Source of the DNA: a virus
Lineage: Duplodnaviria > Caudoviricetes
IMG/VR virus record: IMGVR_UViG_3300020045_000650
Span: 1-43,090 of that record
Direction: 5' to 3' (one strand)
Length of the DNA stretch: 43,090 bases
The notes beneath the pieces are model-generated. The model was given only the letters and a program-made list of their open reading frames with translations, did no database searches and had not been told where the DNA came from. The translations under genes and the position numbers were made by a program. The number at the start of each line of letters is the position of its first letter. The stretch's first letter is position 1. Positions 424 through 42,070 of the stretch are shown here, piece after piece.

Positions 424-2658
424 ATGTTTTCAAACATTCCCGAAGAACTAAGGCAGTTCAATAGCTGGATTGTTTGGCGTTATGAAGCTGGCGACCCAAA
501 ACCAAGAAAGGTTCCTTACAATCCTAAGAACGGTTACAACGCAAGCGTTACCGATCCTTCGCATTGGACAGACTTTGACACGGCTGTATCTGCTTTCAAA
601 AGTGGCATGTATTCGGGTATTGGTTTCGTCCTTAGCGAAAATGATCCTTTCACCTTCATTGATTTGGATACTCCTAGCGATCAAGAGACGCTAGAGAAGC
701 AACTGCGTATTGCGGAATGCTTTGAAAGCTACGCTGAAGTTTCGCCCAGCGGTAGCGGTTTGCATATCGTGTGCAATGGAGAAGTGCCCACAGGGAGGCG
801 CAAAGACTCTATCGAAATCTACAGCAAAGATCGCTACATGACCGTGACAGGCAATGTTTACAAGGCACAGCCTGTCAAGGAATGTCAGTCGCTTGTGGAT
901 ATGCTGTGGGCAGAACTCGAAACCTCACAGCCTATTTTCGTTTCTGGTATTGACGAAGATCAAAAATATACTGATGATCAAATCTGTCACATGGCCTACA
1001 ATGCGTCAAACGGTCAAAAGTTTTACGATCTTTACATTGGCGAATGGATCAAACACTACTCTTCACAATCAGAAGCGGATTTTGCATTAATCAATATCGT
1101 TGGTTTCTACACACAAAACAGGGATCAAGTTAAACGTATCTTTATCGCAAGCGAATTGGGAAAGCGGGATAAGGCAAAGCGCGGCTCTTACCTTGGCGGT
1201 ATGATTTCAAGGGCTTTTGATCGTATCCCGCCGAAGGTTAATCTCGACGCTTTGAAGGCCGATCTTGCCCACAGGTTAGAGCCTCAAGAGACAGTGGAGG
1301 AAGAGCCCAGGCCAGAAGCGGACAAGAGCGAGGTCTACGCCTTTCCTGATGGTTTGCTCGGTGATGTGGCAAACTTCATCTTCGAGTCCTCGCCTCATCC
1401 TAACAAGGAAATGAGCCTTGCGGGTGCTATCGGTTTCATGTCTGGTGTTTGCGGTAGAGCGTTTAATATCAATGGCGTTGGTCTTAACAACTATCTTCTA
1501 GTGTTGGCTGATTCCGGCGTTGGCAAAGAGGCCATGCGAAGCGGTATCAACAAACTGTTTGCCCAAATTGTGCTTAAACAGAACATGGCGTCCGAGACGT
1601 TCATCGGGCCTAGCTCCTACTCATCAGCCCCGGCGCTAATTAAAACGCTAATGGAACGTCCTTCCATCGTCTCGCTCATGTCAGAATTTAGCTATGACAT
1701 TGAGCGTATGAGGCCGCGCAATTCAAATCCAAACATGATTGGCTACAAGCAAGCGTTGGTGGACCTTTACACCAATAGCGGCAAGAACGCGATCATTTCT
1801 AGTCATGCCTACAGCGATAAGGATAAGACAACCAAGATTATCAAAGCTCCCTCGTTTAGTTTTCTAGGCGAGTCGGTTCCCGAACGTTACTACAAAAACG
1901 TAGATCCAGAATTCATTGACGATGGTTTCATTCCTCGTATCTTGACTTTTCACTGTAACAATGTTAGAGCAACGTTCAACAAAAATTGTAAGAATCACGA
2001 AGCTACTGACAAAATGGTAACTCGCATTTCGTCTTTAATAGCATCCTCTTGTGCTTGCAATACTGACAATAAGATTGTCGATGTAACGTTTGATGCCGAT
2101 GCAGAGCAAATGGACGCCGACTACGAAGCCTTTTTGACAACTCAAATCAATGAGGATTCGCCTAGCTGGAAAAAGGCTATTTTCAATCGATCCAAGCTGA
2201 AGATATGGAAATTGTCAGGCTTGGTGGCTGTCGGCATTAATCCTTACGTCCCGGTAATCACTACAGAAATTTACCTGTGGGCAAAAAAGATCGTTGAATT
2301 TGATAACGAAATGTTATTTTCAAAGGTAGAATCTGGTGAGATTGGCGGTAATTACGATCAGCAACAATTACACAAGGTTCGTGAAATCCTTTTCAAATAT
2401 CTAAACAATGGCTACAAGCTTCAAGAGAATCATAGATTTTTCAAAGACAGCGGTTGTATTCCTTACGCTATCATCCAGCGAAATGCTGCAAGTTTTAATT
2501 GCTTCAAGAATGATCCTCGTCGTAGTGCAAGTGCATTGGACGCAACAATCAAAACTCTGGTGTCTAATGGCGAATTGAAAGAACTTCAACCAAAAGACAC
2601 ACAAGAGAAGTTCCAATTTGGCGGAAGATCGTTTGCGATATTGACCATTGAGAAGTAA
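424..2658 (+). CDS. Primase-polymerase (NrS-1-like AEP) fused to a helicase/NTPase domain
   Basis: N-terminal IPEELRQ..W..W, GIGFVL, FIDLD, EVSPSGSGLHI, IEIYSKDRYMTVTG; SQSEADFAL helix bundle; Walker A ADSGVGKE. Start set at ATG 424 after GGTGATC. Confidence 0.85.
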   Translation: MFSNIPEELRQFNSWIVWRYEAGDPKPRKVPYNPKNGYNASVTDPSHWTDFDTAVSAFKSGMYSGIGFVLSENDPFTFIDLDTPSDQETLEKQLRIAECFESYAEVSPSGSGLHIVCNGEVPTGRRKDSIEIYSKDRYMTVTGNVYKAQPVKECQSLVDMLWAELETSQPIFVSGIDEDQKYTDDQICHMAYNASNGQKFYDLYIGEWIKHYSSQSEADFALINIVGFYTQNRDQVKRIFIASELGKRDKAKRGSYLGGMISRAFDRIPPKVNLDALKADLAHRLEPQETVEEEPRPEADKSEVYAFPDGLLGDVANFIFESSPHPNKEMSLAGAIGFMSGVCGRAFNINGVGLNNYLLVLADSGVGKEAMRSGINKLFAQIVLKQNMASETFIGPSSYSSAPALIKTLMERPSIVSLMSEFSYDIERMRPRNSNPNMIGYKQALVDLYTNSGKNAIISSHAYSDKDKTTKIIKAPSFSFLGESVPERYYKNVDPEFIDDGFIPRILTFHCNNVRATFNKNCKNHEATDKMVTRISSLIASSCACNTDNKIVDVTFDADAEQMDADYEAFLTTQINEDSPSWKKAIFNRSKLKIWKLSGLVAVGINPYVPVITTEIYLWAKKIVEFDNEMLFSKVESGEIGGNYDQQQLHKVREILFKYLNNGYKLQENHRFFKDSGCIPYAIIQRNAASFNCFKNDPRRSASALDATIKTLVSNGELKELQPKDTQEKFQFGGRSFAILTIEK

Positions 2659-2672
2659 TGCCCACAGGTAGT

Positions 2673-2706
2673 AAGCCAGGCGTATTCAATAATTGCCTGG
2701 CTTTTT
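2673..2706 (+). terminator. Rho-independent terminator after primase
   Basis: AAGCCAGGC...GCCTGGCTT stem followed by a T run. Confidence 0.75.
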
Positions 2707-2740
2707 ATTTGGATTCGGATAATTCTACTTGAAAATGATT

Positions 2741-2766
2741 AGAGCCGCTTGATTGCGGCTCTTTTT
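2741..2766 (+). terminator. Second tandem rho-independent terminator
   Basis: AGAGCCGC-ttgatt-GCGGCTCT followed by TTTT. Confidence 0.7.
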
Positions 2767-3149
2767 GATTTGAGTGATTTTGATCGGAATAGTGAAATTT
2801 TTCGCCAGAATTGAAAGTGTTCTTATCGATTGTGTAAGGATTGATTGCCGCTCAATGTTGATCGTTCGATCGATAACACTTGAGACTGATTCTCACTGTT
2901 TAAGGCCTCTTGCAGTCCTGGCCTATGCAATGGGACGGCTCGGCGCATCTGAGGGCCTGGATGTGCTAGGCCAGGGACAGAGGACAGCCCGGAGCAGGTG
3001 GACTGCATACCGTGGCCTAGCAATGACAAGTCTAAATTGGAACTAACTCTAGTCAATGCTTGTGGTTATGTTCCAAGTTGACCAAGCAAGCCGACCGAAC
3101 AAAACGCAAATGATAAAATGATTGAAGATAAAATTTTTGAAAATTTATC

Positions 3150-3178
3150 TTGACGGATGCCAGGAACGAACCGATAGT
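3150..3178 (+). promoter_or_regulatory. Sigma70-like early promoter with AT-rich UP element
   Basis: TTGACG-17 nt-GATAGT preceded by A/T tracts; RBS AGGAG before ATG 3216. Confidence 0.55.
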
Positions 3179-3215
3179 TAGGTATCCCGAGTGGGACTAA
3201 CTAACAGGAGCTAAC

Positions 3216-3455
3216 ATGCAAGCAATCAAAACTCGCTACATCGGACCTACCAATTCCAAGCCTGCCAGGATCAAAGCATCATGCGAGGCTGGTTCAATCA
3301 TCATTTCCTGGCCCCATGAATTGAATGTTGAGGATGCGCATACATTTGCAGCCATCCGGCTAATCAAAAAGCTCAATTGGTTTGATGCCGATTTAATTAT
3401 TCACACCGGCTCAATTGATAGTTATTTTGTTCACGTTTTGGAATACAGGAGATAG
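3216..3455 (+). CDS. Conserved phage hypothetical protein
   Basis: 79 aa, MQAIKTRYIGPTNSKPARIKA is a common phage early-protein pattern; good RBS. Confidence 0.75.
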   Translation: MQAIKTRYIGPTNSKPARIKASCEAGSIIISWPHELNVEDAHTFAAIRLIKKLNWFDADLIIHTGSIDSYFVHVLEYRR

Positions 3456-3457
3456 CC

Positions 3458-3715
3458 ATGATTAGAGTCTATCCAGGATCGCTCTATCCCGAGCAGTTGA
3501 TAAAATACAATCAACTGAAAGCATTGTATCCCAAAGCTATCATTCTGAAATGTTCAGATGAGCGAACGGGAATAAGGTTTGGTCAATCAAAGAAACGTTT
3601 GGATCAATGTGCAAAAATAGGTTCGGGAGGTAGGTCTCCAGGGTCACGCATTGCACCTTATCAACTATGGATTACATGGTCGCCGTTTGATCTTTTGCAT
3701 TGGAGTGGGAAATGA
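3458..3715 (+). CDS. Hypothetical protein
   Basis: 85 aa, AGGAG RBS, tightly packed in the operon. Confidence 0.6.
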   Translation: MIRVYPGSLYPEQLIKYNQLKALYPKAIILKCSDERTGIRFGQSKKRLDQCAKIGSGGRSPGSRIAPYQLWITWSPFDLLHWSGK

Positions 3716-3838
3716 AAATCTATTGCGGACTGTCAAAACCAATTATTGTAAAAGGTAAGAATTGCATAAGACTTGCAGAATTTGTGTTACAGCGTTGAAA
3801 CCATCGACCAATATTTTTGCGAAGAAAGGGACTAACTC

Positions 3839-3916
3839 ATGGTAGCATTTGCTTACATCACGATTGGTTCTGTCCTTGGTTTGCACCTTGTCTACTACAA
3901 ATGGAGCGGAAAATGA
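3839..3916 (+). CDS. Small membrane peptide (25 aa)
   Basis: Manual translation MVAFAYITIGSVLGLHLVYYKWSGK; ATGA overlap with the next ORF. Confidence 0.45.
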   Translation: MVAFAYITIGSVLGLHLVYYKWSGK

Positions 3917-3978
3917 AAATCCTCGGCGTCCTTCTACTTTCCGCCATGCCTATCATTTGCCTCGCGGCTTTCATCTAA
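3913..3978 (+). CDS. Small hydrophobic peptide (21 aa)
   Basis: Manual translation MKILGVLLLSAMPIICLAAFI; translationally coupled. Confidence 0.4.
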   Translation: MKILGVLLLSAMPIICLAAFI

Positions 3979-3990
3979 TAGGATCGATCA

Positions 3991-4173
3991 ATGGACAGCA
4001 CTCTGCCTTACACAATTGGAACATACATCAAGATGAACCCGCCTTATGATATTGAAATTGTGTATAGCACTTTTGAACAAGCATGTATTGATGCATTGCG
4101 AATGAGAAAGAGTGGCAAATACTCCAAAATAGTTATAGGCAATCCTATATCCAATTTTGAGCGTGAAGTATGA
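3991..4173 (+). CDS. Hypothetical protein
   Basis: 60 aa ORF with AGGA upstream. Confidence 0.55.
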   Translation: MDSTLPYTIGTYIKMNPPYDIEIVYSTFEQACIDALRMRKSGKYSKIVIGNPISNFEREV

Positions 4174-4242
4174 TCTTCTATATTATTTCACTTATCATCG
4201 TCTCAATCTATCTTGGCATTATGCCCACAGAAAGGATTCAAA

Positions 4243-4788
4243 ATGTCTAACATCAACTGGACTCGGATCAATAATGACAGCAATGGTAATTCACGTTTCG
4301 TTTGTTCGTGGCTTGCTTGTTTGCCTAGTTCCTGGCATGCTCATGATGCTATGCTCAATTCCTCATATAATCGTGTTGTGGCGCTAATAGCTCGTATCGG
4401 TGGCCGTAAGTTTCATAACCGAAATTATGCAGGTGGAATTGTTTTTACTGAATATCGAGGATGTTTGGACCAACTGGAGGCCAAGATCGAAGAATTGAAG
4501 GCATTGACGGATAAGCGCCATAATGTTTTAAAAATTAATAATTGGGTAAAAAGAAACGATGAGTTTGAATGGCTGTCTAGTTACGCTGTTATAGTAATTG
4601 ATGGTTTAGACCTTCAACATATTGAAGATAATCTTAAATTGAGAGACAAGCGTATCATGCAGCTTTTACGCAATAATGGTATTAATGTTTATGCCAGCAA
4701 ACATTATATCGAAGACGATGGCGTAAATTATGTGGTCCACCAGATTGGTTCAAATTATCCTTTGTATGCTATTCAATATGGTGAGTAA
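4243..4788 (+). CDS. Conserved phage hypothetical protein (two-domain)
   Basis: N-terminal WTRINNDSNGNSRFV...GGRKFHNRNYAGGIVF pattern recurs in phage early proteins; RBS AAGGA; start at ATG 4243. Confidence 0.7.
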   Translation: MSNINWTRINNDSNGNSRFVCSWLACLPSSWHAHDAMLNSSYNRVVALIARIGGRKFHNRNYAGGIVFTEYRGCLDQLEAKIEELKALTDKRHNVLKINNWVKRNDEFEWLSSYAVIVIDGLDLQHIEDNLKLRDKRIMQLLRNNGINVYASKHYIEDDGVNYVVHQIGSNYPLYAIQYGE

Positions 4789-4815
4789 TTAGCATTATCC
4801 AATATGGTGAGTAAT
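4774..4815 (+). repeat. 16-bp direct repeat duplicating the gene end
   Basis: CAATATGGTGAGTAAT at 4774-4789 and 4800-4815. Confidence 0.85.
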
Positions 4816-4836
4816 ATTTGATATTTGTTGAGCATT

Positions 4837-4863
4837 GGCCCTGTCTTCGGATAGGGCCTTTTT
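4837..4863 (+). terminator. Rho-independent terminator
   Basis: GGCCCTGTC-TTCG-GATAGGGCC followed by TTTTT. Confidence 0.8.
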
Positions 4864-5160
4864 CATAGAGAGAATATATGTCATTTGCGAGTATTGGGAG
4901 TATTGGGATATAATGACATCTGGGGTCACTTGTATATATTTTCACATAGAGAGAGAAAATCTATATGTTTACATACGTGTGTATAATTTTTAAAAAACAT
5001 AGATAGATTCTCTCTATTAAAAAATATACACTGGAAAAGAATTATATTATTATATCTTATATTACTATATATTGTATACTATTTGTTTACTTTCACTGCT
5101 TTAAACACTAGTCATTCATCAAGATTTTGTCTTGCTTCATAGAGAAAATCTATATAAAAT
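4861..5160. other. AT-rich non-coding region with direct and inverted repeats (candidate origin/control region)
   Basis: TTCA(CA)TAGAGA(GA)A..TAT copies near 4862, 4941 and 5136; imperfect inverted repeat at about 4931-5030; TTGCTT-17-TAAAAT promoter at 5132-5160. Confidence 0.5.
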
Positions 5161-5192
5161 GGGATTGCCTAAATTGGCATGGGAGGATGAAC

Positions 5193-5816
5193 ATGAATTG
5201 GCCTACGCCCGGAGACTCGAACGGGAAGTTCCGATGTGTTGGATGGGACTATCTCGAAAACCAAGTCGTTGTGAAGTGCCTTAGTTGTTCCAGGCATGAA
5301 TCTTTTTCGCTTGAGCAATGGTCTAGTGCCGAATGCACTTGTCGAACCATCAAAGGTGATTGGCAAGTGATCGGGGGCGATCCTAAAACCAAGCTTGAGG
5401 TCAAATGTATCTACTGTGGGCATACTCGTCCAATGTCAGGACATCAATACAGATACTTTCCTCCAGCTTGCTCATGTCAAAAGGTTAAGGGCCAAATCAA
5501 AACCAAACCTTTGATTGAGGGCAAAGCAGGCAAGAACGGAATCATAGGCAATTGGATTTATGTATCCAAGGACCGAGACGGATTCACATGGACATGCAAG
5601 GTGTGCGGTAGGGACACCCATACCCAGACTGCTGATGTGCAGGCCAAGGGTTGCATGGAGTGCTACCACGACGAAGTAGCCTGTGCCGAGCCTACAGAGA
5701 ACGATCTGGCCCTGTGGGCCGCGCAACCGGAGATTGGTGAGGCTATCCAAGCAAGTCGTCTTAAACGTAGAGAACGAGTCGCAAGTAGGCAACCGAATGT
5801 GAGCGGAACTAACTAA
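5193..5816 (+). CDS. Cys-rich protein with three tandem zinc-ribbon-like repeats
   Basis: CLSC..CTC, CIYC..CSC, CKVC..CMEC; GGAGG RBS before ATG 5193. Confidence 0.7.
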   Translation: MNWPTPGDSNGKFRCVGWDYLENQVVVKCLSCSRHESFSLEQWSSAECTCRTIKGDWQVIGGDPKTKLEVKCIYCGHTRPMSGHQYRYFPPACSCQKVKGQIKTKPLIEGKAGKNGIIGNWIYVSKDRDGFTWTCKVCGRDTHTQTADVQAKGCMECYHDEVACAEPTENDLALWAAQPEIGEAIQASRLKRRERVASRQPNVSGTN

Positions 5817-5941
5817 ACTTTCGATAATGTATATTATGTAACTCTATTCATAGCACCTATCTCCAATCATTGCACTACTTAGCACATTGTAATACATAGT
5901 ATTCATTGCATGTATTGCATACTCATATGATAGATCATGGC

Positions 5942-5964
5942 ACCCTGCTCATTAGGCAGGGTTT
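5942..5964 (+). terminator. Hairpin, probable terminator
   Basis: ACCCTGC-tcattag-GCAGGGT followed by TT. Confidence 0.5.
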
Positions 5965-6201
5965 GTTGTATATGGTATGCGATTTGCATATATACATTGA
6001 TCGATCAATCAATATCGATCGAGCTATCTGATATGATGATACGATGATATGACCCCCCCTATACACCAAATTTCTAGGAAGGAAGGTCTGGGTTATCTAT
6101 CAAATAGTATTCTGATGCTTTCAATTTTTGGACTAACTTACACAATACGAAGGACTTAAAAATGCTGGCTAGGCATTCAAAAATTTGGACTAACTAAAAG
6201 C

Positions 6202-6229
6202 TTGACAGAGTTGCTCCTGGGACTAATCT
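6202..6229 (+). promoter_or_regulatory. Sigma70-like promoter for the middle operon
   Basis: TTGACA-16 nt-TAATCT; RBS AAGGAGG before ATG 6274. Confidence 0.55.
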
Positions 6230-6273
6230 ATACAATACAGAGACGCTAACGCGCCCTACCCTAAGGAGGAAGA

Positions 6274-6471
6274 ATGAGATACCAAGTCATCGACGAATCG
6301 GCGTCGGCGCATTCAAAGCAAGAATTTGCTGTGATCGATACAAACAAACCTGAATACGATTCAGCGTATATAATGTGCAAATGCTTCTCCAAGCAACATG
6401 CAATTAAGATCGCAGTATTGCTTAACTACTTACCGTCTTTGGGCGGTTTGATGGACAGGAGCGATGTATGA
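6274..6471 (+). CDS. Hypothetical protein
   Basis: 65 aa, strong RBS; RYQVIDESASAH...FAVIDT...IMCKCF pattern seen in phage proteins. Confidence 0.7.
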   Translation: MRYQVIDESASAHSKQEFAVIDTNKPEYDSAYIMCKCFSKQHAIKIAVLLNYLPSLGGLMDRSDV

Positions 6472-6734
6472 GAATCGGAAGAGTCGCGCAAGCTAGTTTT
6501 GAATACGTCGATATTATTGGAGATGATGTTTATGAATTCAAACGCCATTCGCCTACCTACTGGGAGATTCGTTGCGGCGATTGTTGGGAGCCTTTGTTTT
6601 ATTGTGAAGATGTTGAAAAAGCATACCAAGAATGGGATGCTGAAGAACGAGCCAAAGCATTAAAATTACAAGCAAAGCTCAACACGAATCCTGCTCTATA
6701 CAACAAATCGCTAAACGCTAATTGGGAGGTATAA
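6468..6734 (+). CDS. Hypothetical protein
   Basis: 88 aa, ATGA overlap, AGGAG RBS. Confidence 0.65.
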   Translation: MRIGRVAQASFEYVDIIGDDVYEFKRHSPTYWEIRCGDCWEPLFYCEDVEKAYQEWDAEERAKALKLQAKLNTNPALYNKSLNANWEV

Positions 6735-6838
6735 TGCTCAAACACCCACTAGCATCCTGGATCATCACCACAATCATGTTTACAGCGGTTCTAACTGCGG
6801 CTTTGATTGGCATAATCGATATACTGTGGGCAAATTAA
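6734..6838 (+). CDS. Small membrane protein (34 aa)
   Basis: Manual translation MLKHPLASWIITTIMFTAVLTAALIGIIDILWAN; GGAGG RBS, TAATG overlap. Confidence 0.55.
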   Translation: MLKHPLASWIITTIMFTAVLTAALIGIIDILWAN

Positions 6839-6849
6839 GGAATAGACCA

Positions 6850-7050
6850 ATGCTCGAACGTCCTAAGCCTACTCCAGACCTTTACTTTCCATTACCGCAT
6901 ACATCTGTTACGCAAATCGAATTTGCAGCAATCTATCCTACGAACTGGCAAATTGCAAATTCAAGAACTTGGCATCTAGTCCGAATATGCTTCGCTTATG
7001 GAATGACGCAATCAAGACCGCTTCATCCTTCTCACAGTTGGTTTAACTAA
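6850..7050 (+). CDS. Hypothetical protein
   Basis: AAGGA RBS, fills the operon. Confidence 0.55.
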   Translation: MLERPKPTPDLYFPLPHTSVTQIEFAAIYPTNWQIANSRTWHLVRICFAYGMTQSRPLHPSHSWFN

Positions 7051-7062
7051 AAGGACACTACA

Positions 7063-7269
7063 ATGAGCGTAGGAATTAAAATCGGAACGGATCTTAAAAC
7101 AGTGGAAGCTGCTACTAAGACAGTAATGGCTATTTTAGAAGCCAACGCCGATCAGAAAACCAAAAGAGAAGCTTTTAGAGTGTTTGGAAATCTTTGCAGC
7201 GTTACTGGTGCTGCTGTTAGTAACTGCTGTGTAACCATGCAACCGGATAACGATAGCGATGAGGATTAA
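7063..7269 (+). CDS. Hypothetical protein
   Basis: 68 aa, AAGGA RBS. Confidence 0.65.
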   Translation: MSVGIKIGTDLKTVEAATKTVMAILEANADQKTKREAFRVFGNLCSVTGAAVSNCCVTMQPDNDSDED

Positions 7270-7270
7270 A

Positions 7271-7453
7271 ATGATTTGCTGCTCAAGTCCCAACATTCAA
7301 AGGAAGCTACGAGGCCAGACGGGTATTACCGTTGTTCTTTGGCTCGCTGCAATATTCTTTCTTCCTTTCGCTATTGCTGCTATCATTTACATGATTTGGC
7401 GTCGAGACGAAGCCCGTAAAACTCGCTGCCTCAATTGTGGAAAGGTGTTTTAG
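7271..7453 (+). CDS. Small membrane protein with flanking Cys pairs (LITAF-like zinc ribbon/TM hairpin)
   Basis: CC..., hydrophobic core, then CLNC; GAGG RBS. Confidence 0.6.
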   Translation: MICCSSPNIQRKLRGQTGITVVLWLAAIFFLPFAIAAIIYMIWRRDEARKTRCLNCGKVF

Positions 7454-7720
7454 ATGATTAGAGAAACTTCGCAAATCAACAAAGAGATTCAGGATCTACC
7501 TGTGGGCATTAGCAGAATCGTTTTGCGAGATGCTTACAGACAGACCCGAATCGCTTATCAGGCTCTTGTCAAACATAACGGAAAGTTCAAAACGAAGCGT
7601 TTCTATGTCTCTGGCAAGCGAAACGAAGTTGAAACTTACAAAATTGCTTTGTCTTGCCGACAAGCTTACGAAAAAGCTGAAAACATGGGTTTGTCGTTCG
7701 ATCTTGATAGGTGGTGTTAA
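7454..7720 (+). CDS. AP2-like DNA-binding domain protein
   Basis: LPVGISR...YQALVKHNGKFKTKRFYV...YKIALSCRQAYE resembles the AP2/ERF beta-beta-beta-alpha pattern. Confidence 0.5.
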   Translation: MIRETSQINKEIQDLPVGISRIVLRDAYRQTRIAYQALVKHNGKFKTKRFYVSGKRNEVETYKIALSCRQAYEKAENMGLSFDLDRWC

Positions 7721-7818
7721 TGATCGGCCTTGATTGGTTGACCGTTGGCATAATGTTTGTAGTCGGTATTTGGTTGTGTCTCGAAGTCTGGAATTGTCCA
7801 AAGGAGCCTTACTCATGA
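7720..7818 (+). CDS. Small membrane peptide (32 aa)
   Basis: Manual translation MIGLDWLTVGIMFVVGIWLCLEVWNCPKEPYS; coupled on both sides. Confidence 0.5.
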   Translation: MIGLDWLTVGIMFVVGIWLCLEVWNCPKEPYS

Positions 7819-9818: not shown

Positions 9819-9819
9819 A

Positions 9820-32905: not shown

Positions 32906-32916
32906 AAGGAATAAAC

Positions 32917-34707: not shown

Positions 34708-36644
34708 AACAAAGATTTGATCTTTGGAGAATAATACCCAAGATCGTAAAGCATTTCTTCAGCGGTCTTGATATAAAACCCAAAGTCTAAATCAGCAGGA
34801 ACGTTTAGGGCCAAGTCCATCATGGGTTTGGCCCTATCGCTATTAGGAACTTTGTTTCCAGTAGAAATATAATTGATCGTTCCTTTTTCTTCTGTGCTGT
34901 AGTAGAAGCGAACAACCTTTCCCAAATACTTTCCGTCTTTATGCGCTCCACCGCGAACATTGCGAACGGTCAAGAACTTACGAACATCCTTGCATTCGGT
35001 GACAGTTTCGATAATGGGCTTGCCCACAGTAAGCAAGGCCACGGCAGCTTCATTGCAAATCTGCCTTTCAGGATTCTTGCTTAATACCGAATCGTTGGCT
35101 GATCCTTTTTCGCTGTAAGTTCCTTTGGTCTTTATGCTACCGTCTTCTTTGATTGCAATGTAATTGTTTACGTCACGGCTGTAAACGGCTTTGTAACGGG
35201 TTTCTTCGGTTACGAAACTGGTGTTGTGCTCCCACCATCGAACAATAGCTTCATATTCCTCAAAGCGATCCTGTGGGCATTTGATGATAATGCCATCGGT
35301 ATTTGCCGAAACAACGGGAATGCCCACAGATTCCAGAGCCTCTATTAGCATAAGCAATGCAAGCTGTCCGGTAACTGTTACTTGCAAAAGCAAATCTGGA
35401 GAATACAAGCACGAATAACGGTTTCCAAGCTTGCCAAAGCTGCCATTAATAACGATCTTCAAACTATTGGCGACAACTTTGTTTCCGTTATGTTTGGCCT
35501 CTAGTCGCTTGTCCACAAGTCCTTGATACACTTCTATGAAGAAATCTCCCATGTGGGCAGGAGCTAGATTGTTGTTTAGAATAATGCTAGGGTAATACGA
35601 AGCAACGTCACGATCTAGCAAAAGTGTGTTTTCGTCTGCCTTGTGGCATGTCTTTTCTTCGCTACTATGCAAACCGCCGATGCCCATTCGATAAACACCG
35701 TTGCCTATGCTTACTTTCAAATCGGCCAGCTCTTTAGGCATTTCAATGGAGCCGCTTTCCGCTACTATGAACGGCGTTTCCATTACAATCCTTAGCACTT
35801 CGTTGAGCTGTGGCGTGAGGAAGGCCATCCAGTCTGGCTTACGGTAGGGGAAGGCTGTCCCAGCCAGCACAGCGGGGCGTTTCGGCCACCGACCGCTAAT
35901 TCTGGCTATCTCCGAGGCTAGAACATGCTCGGCAATCTGGGCATCGGACCTAGAGCGCAAATCGATCCCGAATTGCTCGGACATGTCGCATCGAAGCTTC
36001 AATTGCGGGGCAAGATCTTTGTAAAGCAAAATGGTGTTATCCAAATCGTTAATGCAGTAATGCTTAACAAAGTTCATTTGTTCATCTGTAAGCTCGTCGT
36101 TAGGATTGAATGGCAAATCCTGCATCTTGTTACAGTGCATTCGGCCTGCGTAGGTCTTAAGACTTGCCTTCAACGGTGCCACTTCGATCAAATCAATATG
36201 ATTGATGGTCTTAGGAATGACGAGCTTGTATTCTTCCTCAAGCTGTTTCATTCTAAGATCGTTGTTAACAATACGGTTTGAGATTCGCTTTAACTCTTCA
36301 AACGATGTTTCACGAAGCGCCATAAACAACATAGGCATGTCATAGCTCATGCTGTTAAAGCCGACTAGCAAGTAACGCCATACAACCCAATCTAACTTTT
36401 CAAGATCTAGCTTCTTGGTTGCCGAAAGTTCAAAGGTGATTACTTTGCCAATGTCAATGTGTTTGAATGCAATCAGGAAGTAATTTGGATAACATTCAAT
36501 ATCGAAAATCAAAGGCGTAAAGGTGTTGTTCAATATCTCTTCGTTGGTCATTTCCTCATACGGTGTTAGAGGTAGCGACATTACATAATCGCGGTCAATT
36601 TTTATATTCTTTTTCGATTCCGCAATTGGTTCATCGAAGAACAT
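34704..36644 (-). CDS. DNA polymerase family B
   Basis: Exo FDIECY, GFNSMSYD, YCIND; polymerase DVASYYPSI, KIVINGSFGK, NTDGI. Confidence 0.92.
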   Translation of the reverse strand: MFFDEPIAESKKNIKIDRDYVMSLPLTPYEEMTNEEILNNTFTPLIFDIECYPNYFLIAFKHIDIGKVITFELSATKKLDLEKLDWVVWRYLLVGFNSMSYDMPMLFMALRETSFEELKRISNRIVNNDLRMKQLEEEYKLVIPKTINHIDLIEVAPLKASLKTYAGRMHCNKMQDLPFNPNDELTDEQMNFVKHYCINDLDNTILLYKDLAPQLKLRCDMSEQFGIDLRSRSDAQIAEHVLASEIARISGRWPKRPAVLAGTAFPYRKPDWMAFLTPQLNEVLRIVMETPFIVAESGSIEMPKELADLKVSIGNGVYRMGIGGLHSSEEKTCHKADENTLLLDRDVASYYPSIILNNNLAPAHMGDFFIEVYQGLVDKRLEAKHNGNKVVANSLKIVINGSFGKLGNRYSCLYSPDLLLQVTVTGQLALLMLIEALESVGIPVVSANTDGIIIKCPQDRFEEYEAIVRWWEHNTSFVTEETRYKAVYSRDVNNYIAIKEDGSIKTKGTYSEKGSANDSVLSKNPERQICNEAAVALLTVGKPIIETVTECKDVRKFLTVRNVRGGAHKDGKYLGKVVRFYYSTEEKGTINYISTGNKVPNSDRAKPMMDLALNVPADLDFGFYIKTAEEMLYDLGYYSPKIKSLF

Positions 36645-36646
36645 TT

Positions 36647-36784
36647 TCAGTCATCCTTTCTTATGCAAGGAACAATATAGCGACCTGCTAAAACGCCAGT
36701 TGCATAAAACAGAAAGTCTCTAAACTTTAAACTTCCATCTGCGACAATTATGGCAAGCAAAAGAATGCAAATTAAATGACCCAT
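36647..36784 (-). CDS. Small membrane protein (45 aa)
   Basis: MGHLICILLLAIIVADG..., fills the gap between the clamp-like and polymerase genes. Confidence 0.5.
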   Translation of the reverse strand: MGHLICILLLAIIVADGSLKFRDFLFYATGVLAGRYIVPCIRKDD

Positions 36785-36785
36785 T

Positions 36786-37721
36786 TTACATTCCCTTTCT
36801 ATTTGAAATAATACCTCTAATACCATCACCATAGAAAGCAATGTAACCGTTTTCGCGGAATGAAACTTGCTTTGCGTGTTTGGCAACAAACAAAAGATCG
36901 TCGGCCCCGTAAATAGCTCCCTCAAGCACTCCAGGGAACGGCATGGAAGCGCCCTCCTCTTGCCCACAGGCTGTCGAAAGCCTTCCGGCCCTACCGTAGA
37001 GCAGGGAGCCCTTGGCAAACGGCTTGAGGGTAATCACGGCCCTAACAAAATCGTCGCTCATTTCAGCGGCTTCCTCTGTGGGCAAAAACTCATTGGGATT
37101 AGGCCAATCGACATAGAAAGATCGCGCCATGATCCAACTACCGTCTTCAAAGTAGAACGTATTGCTATTTTGGCTCTGTCCGAATCCAGCAACTTTCTTT
37201 TTGGTCTTGACAATCAAAGAAGCCATTTTCTTGCTAATCAAAACGAAAGGCATGGAAACTTCATTCCAAAACTCAACCATACCAAAAGCGTTGGTTGCAA
37301 AAATAGAAGTTCCGTAAATGCAAACGGTCTTCGCCGCTTCCTTTACGGAATTGGTCAAAGCCATTTCGCAAGCAATCTTCAGCATTCCGGCAATGTCATT
37401 GTCAAATTCGATTGACATTGGATCAGCAATGGCATGTTTAATTTCATCGTCGCAATTGACATACGATTGAAAATCGCCGTTGTCAACATGCAATTTGCTA
37501 AGTTCCAATTGAGTAATAGCAATCTTTCCACTTGACTTATCAATGCTGTTGTAAAGCATCTTGATATTAGCTCTGGCATTCAAGCTTTCTTCAATCGGGC
37601 AACCGATGGAAATATGATCAGTCACGGCAGTTACCATATTGTTAGCAATTTCGCAATAGGTTGCGCCGGAAATTCCAACAAACTTCAAAGCTGCTTTCAA
37701 ACTAACGGTAGTATGATTCAT
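36786..37721 (-). CDS. Sliding-clamp (DNA pol III beta)-like protein
   Basis: ~311 aa upstream of the polymerase as in PA73-like phages; IFATNA..E, FYFEDGSW, WPN motifs. Confidence 0.65.
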   Translation of the reverse strand: MNHTTVSLKAALKFVGISGATYCEIANNMVTAVTDHISIGCPIEESLNARANIKMLYNSIDKSSGKIAITQLELSKLHVDNGDFQSYVNCDDEIKHAIADPMSIEFDNDIAGMLKIACEMALTNSVKEAAKTVCIYGTSIFATNAFGMVEFWNEVSMPFVLISKKMASLIVKTKKKVAGFGQSQNSNTFYFEDGSWIMARSFYVDWPNPNEFLPTEEAAEMSDDFVRAVITLKPFAKGSLLYGRAGRLSTACGQEEGASMPFPGVLEGAIYGADDLLFVAKHAKQVSFRENGYIAFYGDGIRGIISNRKGM

Positions 37722-37926
37722 AAGGATCTTCCTCAATCTCATTGACATGAACGAAAGTCACAGTGCCGTAAACCAATTCTGTAACAGGCCTACCGCTGGG
37801 TTTGTAACCGATGATTACTTCAACCCATCCTTCTTTCGAGTTTGCCGACATAGCGTTTCTAACAACTTCGCCGTTTAGAACGGGAAAATGCTCAAGTCCA
37901 AACTTGCTGTTGACATCATATGTCAT
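37702..37926 (-). CDS. Hypothetical protein
   Basis: GAGG RBS; VLNGEVV..A..ANSKEGWVEV..VYGTVTF pattern. Confidence 0.6.
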   Translation of the reverse strand: MTYDVNSKFGLEHFPVLNGEVVRNAMSANSKEGWVEVIIGYKPSGRPVTELVYGTVTFVHVNEIEEDPYESYYR

Positions 37927-37934
37927 TGCATACC

Positions 37935-38168
37935 TCAAAAAGGGATATCAGAAACGTATTCCTCACAACCGATCACAGCGACACGGGCGGGAACAACGGC
38001 TTTCCAGTATTTACAATTACCTGTTTCCTTTTCGTAACTGTCGCAGTTTATACAAGTCTGCCAATTGTTGCAAGCGATTTGTGTGTTTTGAAACAACAAT
38101 CTCGCTCTAACCTTTTCGTAACGTTTTATTGTCATTTCAGTTAGATAGTTTTTGAAACTAGAACTCAT
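37935..38168 (-). CDS. Small Cys-rich protein
   Basis: TCINC...C.YW..VPARVAVIGCE.Y..DIPF; start could instead be 38135. Confidence 0.7.
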   Translation of the reverse strand: MSSSFKNYLTEMTIKRYEKVRARLLFQNTQIACNNWQTCINCDSYEKETGNCKYWKAVVPARVAVIGCEEYVSDIPF

Positions 38169-39765
38169 GACTGACAATCTCCGGGTATTTTTTGTTTGTG
38201 TGAACTTTGATTCTAGCAGGTTGTTTCAAGTTTGACAATTCCGCAAGTGCCATGTCCGTCGAAGCAGGCATTGGTTTACCGCTTCTTCGTTTCCACCATT
38301 CTAACGCCTTTCTTCCTGCGTAGCCAGGATGCTCAATACAAACATACTCTTCAAATCTTTTCAAGCCAGAATAATACGAAACGCGAATCATCGGAAACGA
38401 ACCGACTTTGTCATGCCTATGATAGATAACACGATCAATGTTGAACGTTTCAACAACTGGCATATCTGGGGTTCTTATTAATTCTTCCGTTCCAGCTTCG
38501 GCGAAAATCTTTGTATAGACCGGGAAGACTTGCCCACAGGTTACACAGAACCGGGCCGAGGCGTGATTGTAGGTGCCGCACTCGTCACAGATCCTAATGG
38601 GGGCATCGCCTGCCTTCTGGCCCTTTGGCCTGGGCTTTACTGGGTCATTGATCGGGCCTAGACGTTTGGTGTTCTGAGCGAAATCCAAAACAAGACAATT
38701 CTCTTTGTAGTATGGAAAAAGCGGATTTGAACCATCGTAAGGACGAGTGCCTCTGCCTAGCATTTGCACCCAAAGCGATGCGGACATTGTGGGCCTAAGC
38801 ACAGCAATCAAATCAATGGGCGGGTGATCGAAGCCAGTTGTAAGAACGCCGTTTGAAACAATATATTTATACTTGCCTGCTTTGAAGCCTTCGATCGCAG
38901 CGTCTCTATCTTTAACACCCATCTTGCTATGAACGAAGGTTGCAGTTTCGCCAAAGCTAGTAATCGCTTGAACGACATGTTCGCAATGGTCAATTCCAGT
39001 AGTAAAGATTAAGCCGCAATGACGATCATATCCGAGCTCTAGCATTTCCGAAATTGCAGCATGTGTAATTTCATCGACATCTACTGCGGCTTGCAAATCG
39101 TGTTGTTGAAACTCACCATTTTGAACTTTTACATTTTCGGTATTTATAGCCGTGTTTGTTCGCTTAGGAATAAGTGGTGCTAGATAACCATCACGAAGCA
39201 AACGGTTAAATCCTGCAATGTCTGTGATGTCGTAAGCAACATCAGTAAACAAGCTTCCAGGCTCGATAAGCTGGCCCTGGCCCATACGGTAGCCTGTCGC
39301 GGTGAAACCAATCACCCTGACAAACGGGTTGATCTTACGCAACTCTGCAAAGAACGTTTGATACATGCTATTTGCTTTGTTGGAGATGGTATGGGCCTCA
39401 TCGACTAGGATCAAGTCACGATGGCCGAACAAGCTAGGATTGGCGATCATACTTGCGATGCCACCACAAACGATAGGGCTGTAATGATTCTTTTCACCCA
39501 ATCCAGCGGAATAGATGCCCACAGGAGCGTTGGGCCACATTTCAATAATCTTTTTAGCGTTCTGACTTATTAATTCCTTGACATGAGTTATCATCAAGAA
39601 ACGCTGGTCAGGCCATTGAAACATTACTCTTTGCATAAAAGCGGAAATGACTAAGCTCTTACCGCTACCTGTGGGCAACAATGCAAGAGGATTGCCCTTT
39701 CCGCCATTCGCAAAGTAAGCAAATAGCGCATTGATTGACTCCTCTTGATAATCTCGCAGTTTCAT
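38158..39765 (-). CDS. Superfamily 2 DEAH helicase (RadD/YejH-like, with Zn finger)
   Basis: LRDYQ, PTGSGKS, DEAH, TAT, LTTGFD, QMLGRGTR, CDEC..CVTC. Confidence 0.93.
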   Translation of the reverse strand: MKLRDYQEESINALFAYFANGGKGNPLALLPTGSGKSLVISAFMQRVMFQWPDQRFLMITHVKELISQNAKKIIEMWPNAPVGIYSAGLGEKNHYSPIVCGGIASMIANPSLFGHRDLILVDEAHTISNKANSMYQTFFAELRKINPFVRVIGFTATGYRMGQGQLIEPGSLFTDVAYDITDIAGFNRLLRDGYLAPLIPKRTNTAINTENVKVQNGEFQQHDLQAAVDVDEITHAAISEMLELGYDRHCGLIFTTGIDHCEHVVQAITSFGETATFVHSKMGVKDRDAAIEGFKAGKYKYIVSNGVLTTGFDHPPIDLIAVLRPTMSASLWVQMLGRGTRPYDGSNPLFPYYKENCLVLDFAQNTKRLGPINDPVKPRPKGQKAGDAPIRICDECGTYNHASARFCVTCGQVFPVYTKIFAEAGTEELIRTPDMPVVETFNIDRVIYHRHDKVGSFPMIRVSYYSGLKRFEEYVCIEHPGYAGRKALEWWKRRSGKPMPASTDMALAELSNLKQPARIKVHTNKKYPEIVSHEF

Positions 39766-40592
39766 TAGTAAATCGATTCCCAAGAACCGCAACCGGAAGG
39801 AATGTATTCAGCCGGAACAATGCCGAACCTGTGGCAATGCCATTGCTTGTTTTCAATAGGCTTGCAGTTAGTGCATGAACGGCAATTCCTGGCAAGTTCT
39901 TTGCCGCTATGACAAACAGCAACAAACTGACACATTTTGCATTTCCAGAAATCCTTACTTTCGCTTTCCCTGGGAGGTGGAATTTCGCTAAAGATCACGC
40001 TTTCGGCTTTGCGAATCATATCCTCACCGTGCTTCCAATCAAGCTCCACAGGTTCGATATACAAATCGTCATTGCACTTGTTCTTACAAATGTAAAGCGC
40101 ATGAGTCAATCCAAGCTTAAAGCCATAGGTGCAAACCTGTGACCAATGCTTATCTTTTGCAAAAACACCATTGTCAAAAAGCGTTTTAAATTCAGCACCG
40201 CATTTTGACGTTTTGCATTCAAGCAGACAATTGCCGAGCCCTGGAACTTCAACAATACCATCAATCGATCCTCCAAAATGCCCACAGACATCAGAGATGA
40301 TATATTGCCTGCCTGTAGCCGGATCAATGTTCTCAACCTTATATCCAGCCCCTTGCAGCCATCCGATAATACGGGCCTCTTCCATGTGTCCAGTGTTAAA
40401 CAGACGATACATTCTGCCAGTGTGCTTTACATGATCGACCCAACGAAAGGTAAACCAAAGCTTTCTACGGCAGGTATCGCCAATCAAAGAAGCACCCAAA
40501 TGAGTGCGAAAGCCATCATCGTAGGCTTCTTGTGCATAAGATTCGATACCGTTGCGGATAATATCGGCGATCTTCTTGCAATCTTCTTTCAT
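39765..40592 (-). CDS. Cas4-like / PD-(D/E)XK exonuclease
   Basis: HLGAS.IG..C.R, GSIDG..LLECKT, Q..Y, CKMCQF..VC. Confidence 0.85.
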   Translation of the reverse strand: MKEDCKKIADIIRNGIESYAQEAYDDGFRTHLGASLIGDTCRRKLWFTFRWVDHVKHTGRMYRLFNTGHMEEARIIGWLQGAGYKVENIDPATGRQYIISDVCGHFGGSIDGIVEVPGLGNCLLECKTSKCGAEFKTLFDNGVFAKDKHWSQVCTYGFKLGLTHALYICKNKCNDDLYIEPVELDWKHGEDMIRKAESVIFSEIPPPRESESKDFWKCKMCQFVAVCHSGKELARNCRSCTNCKPIENKQWHCHRFGIVPAEYIPSGCGSWESIY

Positions 40593-40810
40593 TCCCAATT
40601 CCTATCACGCAATTTTGAAAGTGAACGAGAAAGATCCATTGAGGATCGCTTGAGAGCAGAACTTTCAGGCTTCATAAAAGTTCCACAATAGGATTCGATT
40701 TTGCCTTTAGGTTGCGTTTTGCGAAGATCGGCGCAACGTTTCAAAAATCGCTTTGCTTCCTCTTCACAAGCTTTTAGCGTTTCTTCAGTAATCATGCTTT
40801 CATTCCTCAT
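40589..40810 (-). CDS. Hypothetical protein
   Basis: 73 aa, EAKRFL...ALKRSSMDLSRSLSKLR conserved phage pattern. Confidence 0.7.
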   Translation of the reverse strand: MRNESMITEETLKACEEEAKRFLKRCADLRKTQPKGKIESYCGTFMKPESSALKRSSMDLSRSLSKLRDRNWE

Positions 40811-40812: not shown

Positions 40813-40849
40813 AAAAACCCCTGGAATCTATGACAACTCCAGGGGTTTT
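40813..40849 (-). terminator. Rho-independent terminator after SSB (possibly bidirectional)
   Basis: AAAACCCCTGGA...TCCAGGGGTTTT. Confidence 0.75.
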
Positions 40850-40867
40850 GTTTAGATCGTTGCTATA

Positions 40868-41515
40868 TTACCGCGTTGCCCAAGGGGGAACGGGAGCGCC
40901 GGAAGGTGCCGCTTCCTGAGTCTGTGCAGGGGCGGCCTGCTGTCCCCAAGGAGCGGCGGCAGGGGCTGCCTGCTGTGCCTGTGGCTGAGTGAAGGCCGGA
41001 GCCTGGGGAGCGGGGGCCGCAGCGGGAGTTCCGGCAAAGGCAGGGACAGGAGCAGAAGCCGCCTGAGCAGGCTTGGCCTGTCCTGGACGATTGCCGCTGT
41101 AATCCAGCACGCCCTTAACTTCGGTGTAGTCGGGAGCATCTTCCTTAGCCTTCTTCTGAAGGCCAACAACGGCACGGAAGGGAATGTTGTGAAGCTGGGC
41201 AGAATCGGAAATCATCATCTGTCCGGTAACGTGGCAGATGGCGGAAAGCTGCCGGGAAGCAATGTCAACCGTCTGAGCGTTTTCGTTGAAGAGATTCAGA
41301 CGATAAGCACCGGTCTGGCCCTTGTGTTCTCCCTCAATGATGCTAAGGGTCAACTCAAGATAGCCATTGGTGCCATTGCCGCTCTTACTGGCCTTGAACT
41401 CAGAAGCGGAAACGATCACAGGCCAGCCATCGGACCCGGAGATGGGAAGCTGAGAAACGGCAGGGCCAGCAGGTTCCACCGTATGAGCGTTGAAAGGACT
41501 AGGCAAAAGAGCCAT
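40868..41515 (-). CDS. DUF669 single-stranded DNA-binding protein
   Basis: GYLELTLSIIEGEHKG..RLNL.N..TVDIA.RQLSAICH; Pro/Ala/Gln tail ending PPW. Confidence 0.85.
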   Translation of the reverse strand: MALLPSPFNAHTVEPAGPAVSQLPISGSDGWPVIVSASEFKASKSGNGTNGYLELTLSIIEGEHKGQTGAYRLNLFNENAQTVDIASRQLSAICHVTGQMMISDSAQLHNIPFRAVVGLQKKAKEDAPDYTEVKGVLDYSGNRPGQAKPAQAASAPVPAFAGTPAAAPAPQAPAFTQPQAQQAAPAAAPWGQQAAPAQTQEAAPSGAPVPPWATR

Positions 41516-41561
41516 TTGAAACCTCTTTTAGAAATTAGAGCAACTTGCTCTATTGGTTGAT

Positions 41562-41666
41562 TTAAAAACCGTAACCGCCACCGTCACCGCTACCGTCACC
41601 GTAACCGTAACCGCTACCGCTACCGTCACCGCTACCGCTACCGTCATGTATCATTGCGGTATTCAT
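41562..41666 (-). CDS. 34-aa Gly-repeat peptide
   Basis: Manual translation MNTAMIHDGSGSGDGSGSGYGYGDGSGDGGGYGF; hexamer-type repeat 41569-41645; GGAG RBS. Confidence 0.6.
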   Translation of the reverse strand: MNTAMIHDGSGSGDGSGSGYGYGDGSGDGGGYGF

Positions 41667-41667
41667 G

Positions 41668-41991
41668 TTACTTCTCCGTGCTGCTCAGGTCCACGCCCTC
41701 AGCGATAGGAATAATCTCGATAACCTGGGTCAAAATAATCTCAGGCACGTTGACGCTGATGCGCGAATTGCTACGAATAATGCCGTTCGTCGCCACGGCA
41801 GAAAGTGTGAAAGCGCCCTGCCAAGACCAGAGGCGGCGAGCATTGGCGAGAACCACTTCAGTTCCTTCTCGCTTGACGATGGTGCCGATGTGGACGCCTG
41901 CGGAGTAGGTCCGCACGATGACTTCAGGACCGGTCTTGACAGTAGAAGCAGGCACGTAGTCAACGCCATTGATAGTGATAACTTCGCTCAT
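41668..41991 (-). CDS. DUF6948-like protein
   Basis: VIVRTYSAGVHIG..VVLANARRLWSWQGAFTLSAVATNG. Confidence 0.75.
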   Translation of the reverse strand: MSEVITINGVDYVPASTVKTGPEVIVRTYSAGVHIGTIVKREGTEVVLANARRLWSWQGAFTLSAVATNGIIRSNSRISVNVPEIILTQVIEIIPIAEGVDLSSTEK

Positions 41992-42070
41992 TTGAAACCT
42001 CTTTTAGAAAGCTGGATTCTGTGGGCATCCAGCGAAAGCCCATGTGTTGAAATGTTGCCTGATGCAATAA

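What the first reader, a model, noticed from the sequence alone, without database searches (positions are those of the whole stretch)
785..42027. Genome-wide 9-mer CTGTGGGCA, ~100-fold over-represented: candidate undescribed DNA-site/protein system
Seen: at least 36 exact copies (22 CTGTGGGCA, 14 TGCCCACAG on +), on average one per ~1.2 kb, plus 1-mismatch variants (e.g. 5712, 10340, 22266, 23864, 28632, 30221, 35551). Uniform-base arithmetic gives about 86,000/262,144 = 0.3 expected. In 31 of 36 copies the next base is A or T, giving consensus YCTGTGGGCAW. Inside genes it is read in different frames and strands (PVG/SVG, LWA, CGQ/CGH, LPT, AHR, CPQ), so selection acts on the DNA rather than the protein. 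It occurs in both orientations relative to transcription, unlike Chi, KOPS or mycobacteriophage L5 stoperators, which are polarised (established knowledge). Inference: an array of binding sites for a phage or host protein (genome coating, protection, titration), or sites of programmed nicks or modification in virion DNA.
Basis: partly seen in the sequence, partly recalled or inferred. Interest (0 to 1): 0.9.

Follow-up and report, generated by a model that had tools for sequence, protein, structure and literature searches.

The report
Evenly spaced primase start-site grid
This phage carries the word CTGTGGGCA 36 times, about every 2 kb along one DNA strand and less regularly on the other, and related phages carry variants spaced evenly on each strand separately; these words likely mark where the phage's own primase starts new DNA pieces, which would mean the virus writes its replication-priming map into its genome.

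Summary
Observation confirmed: 36 exact copies (22 +, 14 -); 32 lie in genes against 0.76 under a codon-preserving null. The window is a complete PA73-like phage whose ORF 379-2658 is an NrS-1-type primase with a helix-bundle domain; such enzymes prime just 5' of GTG(G). The word is the local form of a TGTGG-NN-A family, strongly enriched in 27 of 29 phages with this primase plus its replication module, 0 of 15 with helicase/Cas4/Sak4 but no such primase, 0 of 7 with the primase alone. Same-strand copies avoid each other (70 vs 345 pairs under 1 kb), opposite-strand copies do not (330 vs 340). Best reading: lagging-strand priming sites (0.78). Against: no biochemistry; trees do not single out the primase; the clamp co-occurs equally well. 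Not found in print; this scan reached the same reading before on other genomes. Specific here: facing site pairs 111-262 bp apart (weak, corrected P 0.04).

The parts
904..42027 (+). + strand array, 22 exact CTGTGGGCA at 904, 2275, 5414, 6824, 7500, 8767, 10536, 12065, 13591, 15013, 17819, 21355, 22532, 24407, 26343, 28779, 32658, 33478, 35271, 37076, 39669, 42019; gaps 676-3879, evenly spaced
785..40287 (-). - strand array, 14 exact copies at 785, 1266, 2659, 4222, 14896, 22825, 29739, 32413, 35021, 35321, 36961, 38531, 39516, 40279; uneven, sparse between 4222 and 29739
10340..35559 (.). one-mismatch copies keeping TGTGGG that partly fill gaps: - strand 10340, 17686, 22266, 26846, 28632; + strand 30221, 35551 (also 5712, 8303)
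785..39677 (.). facing pairs (- site followed by + site 111-262 bp later, TGTGGGCA): 785/904, 14896/15013, 17686/17819, 22266/22532, 28632/28779, 32413/32658, 35021/35271, 35321/35551, 36961/37076, 39516/39669
   Evidence: rotation null P 0.005, 0.044 after scanning over offsets
379..2658 (+). NrS-1-type AEP primase / helix-bundle domain / C-terminal P-loop (DUF3987) protein; proposed reader; D95-x-D97, SPSGSGLH 122-129, E146, SQSEAD 229
34704..36644 (-). family-B-like DNA polymerase
36786..37748 (-). DNA polymerase processivity factor (clamp-like; PHROG label only, no PDB sequence match)
38158..39792 (-). RadD-like SF2 helicase
39765..40598 (-). Cas4-domain exonuclease
40868..41515 (-). single-strand DNA binding protein (DUF669)
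42243..42962 (-). Sak4-like annealing protein

Best explanation
CTGTGGGCA is likely the single-strand template site at which the phage's own NrS-1-type primase (ORF 379-2658) starts new DNA, and the copies are kept about every 2 kb along a strand, where they would serve as Okazaki-fragment start points. Shown: enrichment, even + strand spacing, primase family and fold, the motif family across relatives, strand-specific spacing and positional turnover. Inferred: the helix-bundle domain binds GTG-G plus 3' bases on the unwound lagging-strand template; the invariant C-T just 5' of GTG templates a primer starting 5'-A-G; the phage polymerase and clamp extend it to the previous fragment; both strands carry sites because each serves as lagging template for forks of one direction; redundant close copies decay or are purged, which gives the even grid.
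For: (1) Reader on board: sequence matches to NrS-1 primase (E 7.5e-29) and 7OLA primase; AlphaFold model pLDDT 86.5 best matches NrS-1 N300 (E 1e-19) then pRN1 primase (2.5e-8); catalytic residues invariant in 17 homologues. (2) Site chemistry: NrSPol primes best at GTGG/GTGA, also TTTGGTTA, starting just upstream (PMC8718748); pRN1 primase primes only at GTG, its common template runs C1-T2-G3-T4-G5, pairing ATP and dGTP, and its HBD also contacts bases 6 and 7 (PMC13469122). (3) Family: top de novo words TGTGGGCA, CGTGGGCA, TGTGGCCA, TGTGGTCA, TGTGGTTA, TTGTGGGT in relatives infecting Alpha-, Beta- and Gammaproteobacteria; a GTGG word is the top 7- or 8-mer in 38 of 59 IMG/VR loci of 10 kb or more (59 of 80 fetched). 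(4) Unbiased scan of all 6-8-mers: a word of this family is the most evenly spaced in 20 of 24 primase+module genomes and 0 of 12 others. (5) 22 genomes pooled: same-strand pairs under 1 kb 70 vs 345 expected, opposite-strand 330 vs 340; median same-strand gap 2277, quartiles 1629-3020, 951 gaps in 27 genomes. (6) Positions turn over: a window site has a site at the homologous codon in 10 of 205 site-orthologue comparisons. (7) Dissociation: log10 P <= -8 in 27 of 29 primase+module genomes, 0 of 15 with helicase homologues (14 with Cas4, 14 with Sak4) and no primase hit, 0 of 4 with neither. (8) Survives change of virion genes (BP63, RHEph04, G001-G003) and absence of the window-type polymerase (Bhz54, PmaS_R3, G006, G008).
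Against: No biochemical test. The primase is not sufficient: 0 of 7 primase-only genomes, NrS-1 among them, show the grid. The base after GTGG needs 2 changes on the primase-domain tree and 3 on its C-terminal half but 1 on the SF2 helicase, Cas4, clamp and polymerase trees (19-24 genomes per tree, FastTree), so phylogeny points to the module, not to the primase. The clamp-like gene is absent from all negatives and so co-occurs as well as primase-plus-module does. For NrSPol, shortening bases 3' of GTG(A) did not affect priming, whereas here three further 3' bases are invariant. The window's - strand is not evenly covered (10.7-kb gap in exact copies); G006 and G008 show little same-strand avoidance (14 vs 19.7, 16 vs 18.9). 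8 of the 14 primase-less IMG/VR records are under 90% complete. Per-genome patterns and the -8 threshold were chosen after seeing the data.
Confidence: 0.78

Rival explanations
1. The word is read by another member of the phage replication module (clamp-like factor, RadD-like helicase, SSB or Cas4 nuclease), for instance as a loading site or a Chi-like stop for phage-encoded resection.
For: Motif state fits the helicase, Cas4, clamp and polymerase trees with one change; the clamp co-occurs with the grid and is missing from all negatives; Chi-type sites are also read on one strand (recalled).
Against: 0 of 15 genomes with helicase homologues (14 with Cas4, 14 with Sak4) but no primase hit carry the word; Axy20 has the word without a Cas4 hit; the word starts with the published primase site; sliding clamps are not known to read sequence (recalled).
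Confidence: 0.11
2. Array of sites for a double-strand DNA-binding phage or host protein (coating, protection, titration, uptake signal, host Chi).
For: High copy number, both orientations, all reading frames.
Against: Spacing acts within a strand only; the same word occurs across hosts in three proteobacterial classes and different words in phages of one host (P. aeruginosa: PA73 TGTGGGC, and Pseudomonas phage NP1 TGTGGTCA; E. coli: Seurat TGTGGTTA, FritzHoffmann TGTGGTCA); DUF7303, the one conserved candidate I followed, has no hit in Queuovirinae, BP63 or RHEph04, which carry the grid.
Confidence: 0.05
3. Sites of programmed nicks or modification in virion DNA, or signals for packaging or ejection.
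For: Regular spacing would suit stepwise handling of virion DNA.
Against: Present on both strands, whereas T5- and phiKMV-type nicks are on one (recalled); persists in phages with unrelated terminase, portal or capsid (NP1, RHEph04, G001-G003) and is absent from capsid relatives lacking the primase (D14P, YMC11/02/R656, K1H).
Confidence: 0.04
4. The sites serve the same primase but for re-priming or recombination-dependent restart on either strand rather than for routine Okazaki initiation.
For: Huang et al. propose GTG sites for restart in NrS-1; no strand switch marking an origin and terminus is seen, and sense/antisense 422/338 is no more skewed than the null 116/73.
Against: Restart alone gives no clear reason for avoiding close same-strand copies (10 vs 104 pairs under 300 bp) or for depletion of near-cognate words. 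This is a variant of the best explanation and overlaps with it.
Confidence: 0.15

Closest known systems
Template recognition sites of phage NrS-1 primase-polymerase (5'-TTTGGTTA-3'; 5'-GTGG/GTGA-3'; PMC8718748, PMC7102993)
   Same: Same enzyme family and fold; GTGG core; priming expected just 5' of the site; Seurat's word TGTGGTTA is one base from TTTGGTTA.
   Different: NrS-1 has only two copies of its 8-nt site, proposed as an origin, and shows no grid; here a strict 8-9-mer is laid genome-wide at about 2 kb per strand in a phage with its own polymerase and clamp.
pRN1 ORF904 primase GTG site (PMC13469122, PMC8076596)
   Same: Helix-bundle domain reads GTG; C-T 5' of it templates the first A-G dinucleotide; bases 3' of GTG touch the domain.
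   Different: Three-base requirement, archaeal plasmid, no genome-wide array in the passages I read; 12% identity in the structural alignment.
T7 gp4 primase sites on the lagging-strand template (recalled; the T7 trinucleotide is mentioned)
   Same: Phage-encoded primase-helicase priming Okazaki fragments at sequence-defined sites.
   Different: DnaG-type enzyme, short frequent sites used stochastically (recalled); here an AEP enzyme and rare, evenly kept sites on both strands.
RSF1010 RepB' ssiA/ssiB (search listing)
   Same: AEP plus helix-bundle primase acting at two inversely oriented sites; the window's facing pairs resemble that geometry loosely.
   Different: 40-nt sites confined to oriV; here 9-mers with no hairpin signal, spread over the genome.

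Membership tests
NrS-1-type AEP primase-polymerase (ORF 379-2658) | AEP catalytic motifs DxD, SxSGxGxH, E | tested here: met
   D95/D97, SPSGSGLH 122-129, E146; invariant in 17 homologues including NrS-1
NrS-1-type AEP primase-polymerase (ORF 379-2658) | Helix-bundle domain after the catalytic domain | tested here: met
   PF22763 E 7.8e-6, 26.1 bits, just under the 27.9 cut-off; helical domain in the model and fold match to NrS-1 N300
NrS-1-type AEP primase-polymerase (ORF 379-2658) | C-terminal ring helicase domain | tested here: inconclusive
   DUF3987 E 3e-6 and a P-loop-like ADSGVGK in the sequence; PDB sequence matches cover only the N-terminal part
NrS-1-type AEP primase-polymerase (ORF 379-2658) | De novo primer synthesis at a specific template | not testable with these tools
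   needs an enzyme assay
Helix-bundle primase recognition site | GTG (best GTGG/GTGA) core with templating bases 5' of it | tested here: met
   CT-GTG-G in 36 of 36 copies vs published sites
Helix-bundle primase recognition site | Acts on one strand at a time | tested here: met
   same-strand avoidance, opposite-strand independence in 22 genomes; in the window only the + strand is even
Helix-bundle primase recognition site | Depends on the primase gene | tested here: inconclusive
   absent from 19 of 19 genomes without a primase hit but also from 7 of 7 primase-only genomes; trees do not single out the primase
Chi sites (RecBCD/AddAB type; features recalled) | Sequence set by the host nuclease | tested here: not met
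   word follows phage clade, differs between phages of one host
Chi sites (RecBCD/AddAB type; features recalled) | Co-occurs with a helicase-nuclease pair | tested here: not met
   0 of 15 genomes with the helicase (14 with Cas4) and no primase hit carry it
DNA uptake sequences (features recalled) | Host-specific word, orientation-independent | tested here: not met
   shared across three proteobacterial classes; spacing is strand-specific
Mycobacteriophage stoperators (features recalled) | Oriented with transcription in a temperate phage with a repressor | tested here: not met
   23 sense, 14 antisense; no integrase or repressor among 63 ORFs scanned
Programmed virion nicks (T5, phiKMV-like; features recalled) | Physical single-strand breaks at the motif, on one strand | not testable with these tools
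   motif is on both strands; breaks need virion DNA

The most novel reading that the evidence does not exclude
The phage replicates from a hard-wired priming map: a strict 9-base primase site fixes where every Okazaki fragment starts, surplus sites are purged, and in this lineage the ten facing site pairs 111-262 bp apart act as distributed ssiA/ssiB-like origins that prime both strands from one bubble. The milder form without the origin role has about 0.5 probability.
Probability: 0.12. Interest if true: 0.85.

Novelty: new variant of a known kind. Interest (0 to 1): 0.62.

Why it matters
Primase sites are usually 3-5 bases, frequent and used by chance, and what sets Okazaki-fragment length is still argued (recalled). 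A large group of culturable phages (PA73-like, Queuovirinae, Rosemountvirus) with rare, evenly kept 7-9-base sites makes this directly testable by synonymous recoding. It would also give each primase's specificity from genome sequence alone, a natural series (GC, TC, TT, CC, GT after GTGG) for mapping helix-bundle recognition, sequence-specific primases as reagents, and a constraint to respect when recoding therapeutic phages.

Tried and rejected
No nucleotide-level relative among annotated phages; best primase homologues are 42% identical, so synonymous conservation at the window's own sites could not be tested. A single-protein locus search found nothing. A single-sequence fold was useless (pLDDT 35). 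Sites show no hairpin tendency (MFE -4.22 vs -4.21, P 0.67). An origin/terminus strand switch suggested by the window's - strand clustering was dropped: variants fill part of the gap and pooled sense bias equals the null. Genome-wide GTG depletion as proof of primase-site purging was rejected: it is rank 11 of 32 in the window and, where strong, mostly accompanies loss of CTC/GAG. Near-cognate depletion (non-T + core below null in 18 of 18 genomes, 0.35 or less in 9; window 0.62 vs control 0.87) is kept as suggestive only. Careful trees finished for the primase domain only; the Queuovirinae clade was supported and Bhz54 unresolved. Promoter or terminator role: only 2 of the 8 sites starting in 2600-12000 touch a predicted element (10536 in a promoter-like spacer, 2659 in a weak hairpin). 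Literature: ten searches found no paper on the word or on an evenly spaced primase-site array; most subscription papers are not covered and Zhu 2017 PNAS was not held.
Full report
Observation. The window holds 36 exact copies of CTGTGGGCA, 22 on + and 14 on -, and 48 within one mismatch against 6.6 in shuffles. 32 copies lie in genes, in all six frame/strand classes, against 0.76 (maximum 5 in 1000) when amino acids and codon usage are kept. Flanks are biased: C/T before in 30 of 36, A/T after in 31 of 36. The enrichment is real and acts on the DNA.

The genome. The ends overlap by 121 bases and the record is complete with direct terminal repeats. Gene order and families match PA73-like siphophages: terminase to tail on +, then polymerase, processivity factor, RadD-like helicase, Cas4-like nuclease, SSB and Sak4 on -, and a 759-codon primase ORF at 379-2658. 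No integrase or repressor was found among 63 ORFs. It has no close relative.

On the + strand the 22 gaps run 676-3879 bases, CV 0.41; none of 100000 random sets was as even. The - strand is not even (CV 0.99): exact copies are sparse between 4222 and 29739, partly filled by one-mismatch copies.

The candidate reader. ORF 379-2658 matches NrS-1 primase structures by sequence. A model of residues 14-294 from a 59-sequence alignment (pLDDT 86.5) matches NrS-1 N300 first and pRN1 primase next. Catalytic residues are intact. From PMC8718748 (abstract, introduction, part of the methods, section 19 and passages): NrSPol primes at TTTGGTTA and more efficiently at GTGG or GTGA, beginning just upstream, and trimming bases downstream of GTGA did not matter. 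From PMC13469122 (passages): pRN1 primase primes only at GTG; its usual template reads C1-T2-G3-T4-G5-C6-T7-C8-A9, C1 and T2 pair with dGTP and ATP, C6 and T7 contact the helix-bundle domain, C8 and A9 do not. PMC8076596 (passages) agrees that the first dinucleotide forms opposite the two bases 5' of GTG. PMC7102993 (passages) reports only two copies of the 8-nt site in NrS-1. PMC12205980 (passages) restates GTG as the strong site. Zhu 2017 was not held. I read no supplements; those of PMC8718748 (template series) may bear on how far recognition reaches 3'. The window's word reads CT-GTG-GGCA, so a primer would start 5'-A-G (inference).

Relatives. In 28 named phage genomes first fetched, de novo counting gave TGTGGGC(A) in PA73, LPPA15, RcTitan, AH03, Kharn, Axy20, Ab_SZ3 and PmaS-R3, CGTGGGCA in VCLv21, TGTGGCCA in Bhz54, TGTGGTCA in NP1, BUCT627, VhaS-tm, FritzHoffmann and VspDsh_1, TGTGGTTA in Seurat and CTGTGG in RHEph04. 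The myovirus-type BP63, with a diverged primase of the same family, has TTGTGGGT. Among 80 IMG/VR primase loci, 59 were 10 kb or longer and a GTGG word was the top 7- or 8-mer in 38. An unbiased ranking of all 6-8-mers by per-strand evenness put a word of this family first in 20 of 24 primase-plus-module genomes and in 0 of 12 others.

Strand logic and turnover. Pooled over 22 genomes, same-strand pairs closer than 300, 600 and 1000 bases number 10, 26 and 70 against 104, 207 and 345 expected; opposite-strand pairs number 85, 198 and 330 against 102, 204 and 340 (patterns were chosen per genome after inspection). Median same-strand gap is 2277 bases, near the 1-2 kb of bacterial Okazaki fragments (recalled). 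Only 10 of 205 comparisons find a site at the homologous codon of an orthologue: spacing is conserved, positions are not. A double-strand binder or titration array gives no reason for a within-strand rule; a reader of the unwound template does.

Which protein. Over all 55 genomes, the best N-GTGG word reaches log10 P <= -8 in 27 of 29 with the primase and its module (misses: RHEph04, whose CTGTGG was outside the pattern set but is even, and the fragment G009), in 0 of 15 with the helicase (34-40% identity; 14 with Cas4, 14 with Sak4) and no primase hit, in 0 of 7 with the primase alone and in 0 of 4 with neither. 8 of the 14 primase-less IMG/VR records are under 90% complete, and five records (Mcat17, G007, G015, G022, G023) were fetched short of their ends. 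Results against: the primase is not sufficient (NrS-1 has no grid); the clamp-like gene is missing from every negative and so cannot be separated from primase-plus-module; and on FastTree trees the base after GTGG changes twice on the primase-domain tree but once on helicase, Cas4, clamp and polymerase trees. Genomics thus ties the word to this replication module; it is the match to published site chemistry that picks the primase. Serbin, with a RepB-like primase (weak Pfam hit), shows a mild GTGTGGC excess, while Mcat17, also RepB-type, shows none.

A window-specific detail. 10 of 17 - strand TGTGGGCA sites are followed by a + site 111-262 bases later, the geometry in which the two primers would point towards each other (rotation null 3.3, P 0.005; 0.044 after scanning offsets). 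In 27 relatives such pairs are depleted (36 vs 66 expected; back-to-back 76). This is unexplained and may be chance.

Earlier notes. I had written down the primase reading before consulting the scan's notes; eight earlier notes on other genomes reach the same or a parallel reading. They are not independent evidence. None was found for look-alikes of this window or for facing pairs.

Verdict. A real, DNA-level feature; most likely a genome-wide grid of recognition sites for the phage's NrS-1-type primase (0.78). It works like known helix-bundle primase sites but differs in length, rarity and even per-strand layout, which ten literature searches did not find described. New variant of a known kind; interest 0.62.

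Noticed in passing
PA73 (L001), LPPA15 (L029-L031), RcTitan (L032-L034), Kharn (L038-L040), PmaS-R3 (L100-L102), whole genomes: The trinucleotide GAG/CTC is almost absent on both strands: 28, 21, 10, 30 and 12 copies against about 1300-1500 expected; GTG is also halved in three of them. Partial depletion in Ab_SZ3, VCLv21, AH03, Axy20; mild in the window (826 vs 1186). One paper search and one notes search found nothing. A three-base avoidance this strong suggests an unknown host defence or DNA-modifying pressure and deserves its own look.
   Followed up: partly
window 1-43090: GTAC is completely absent (0 copies), as in VCLv21 and Kharn; likely restriction-site avoidance.
   Followed up: no
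Pseudomonas phage YMC11/02/R656 (L094-L096, L103): ATCAGCG/CGCTGAT (10 and 13 copies) is as evenly spaced per strand as the primase-family words (score -7.9) in a phage with no NrS-1-type primase hit.
   Followed up: no
window 7734-8219 and 9923-10528: dATP/dGTP diphosphohydrolase domain protein (PF18909) and ThyX thymidylate synthase; no base-modification synthesis genes were identified among the ORFs scanned.
   Followed up: no
window 19718-21151: Virion-region gene after the major capsid gene carries a polysaccharide deacetylase domain.
   Followed up: no
window 5127-5816: 229-codon ORF with several CxxC pairs and no family hit in PHROGs, Pfam or NCBIfam.
   Followed up: no
G008 (L203-L204) and loci L159-L163: A clade with the word TGTGGGG at higher density (32 in 28 kb), little same-strand avoidance, and GTG as its most depleted trinucleotide.
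   Followed up: partly
G012, G013, G015 (L290-L298): GCTGGCGC is the top 8-mer (23-49 copies, 5-6 fold) in these primase-less phages; may be codon-driven or Chi-like.
   Followed up: no
Klebsiella phage VLCpiS10a (L060-L062): CCCGTGG is enriched (37 vs 4.9) but not evenly spaced, in a phage with the primase but not the module.
   Followed up: partly
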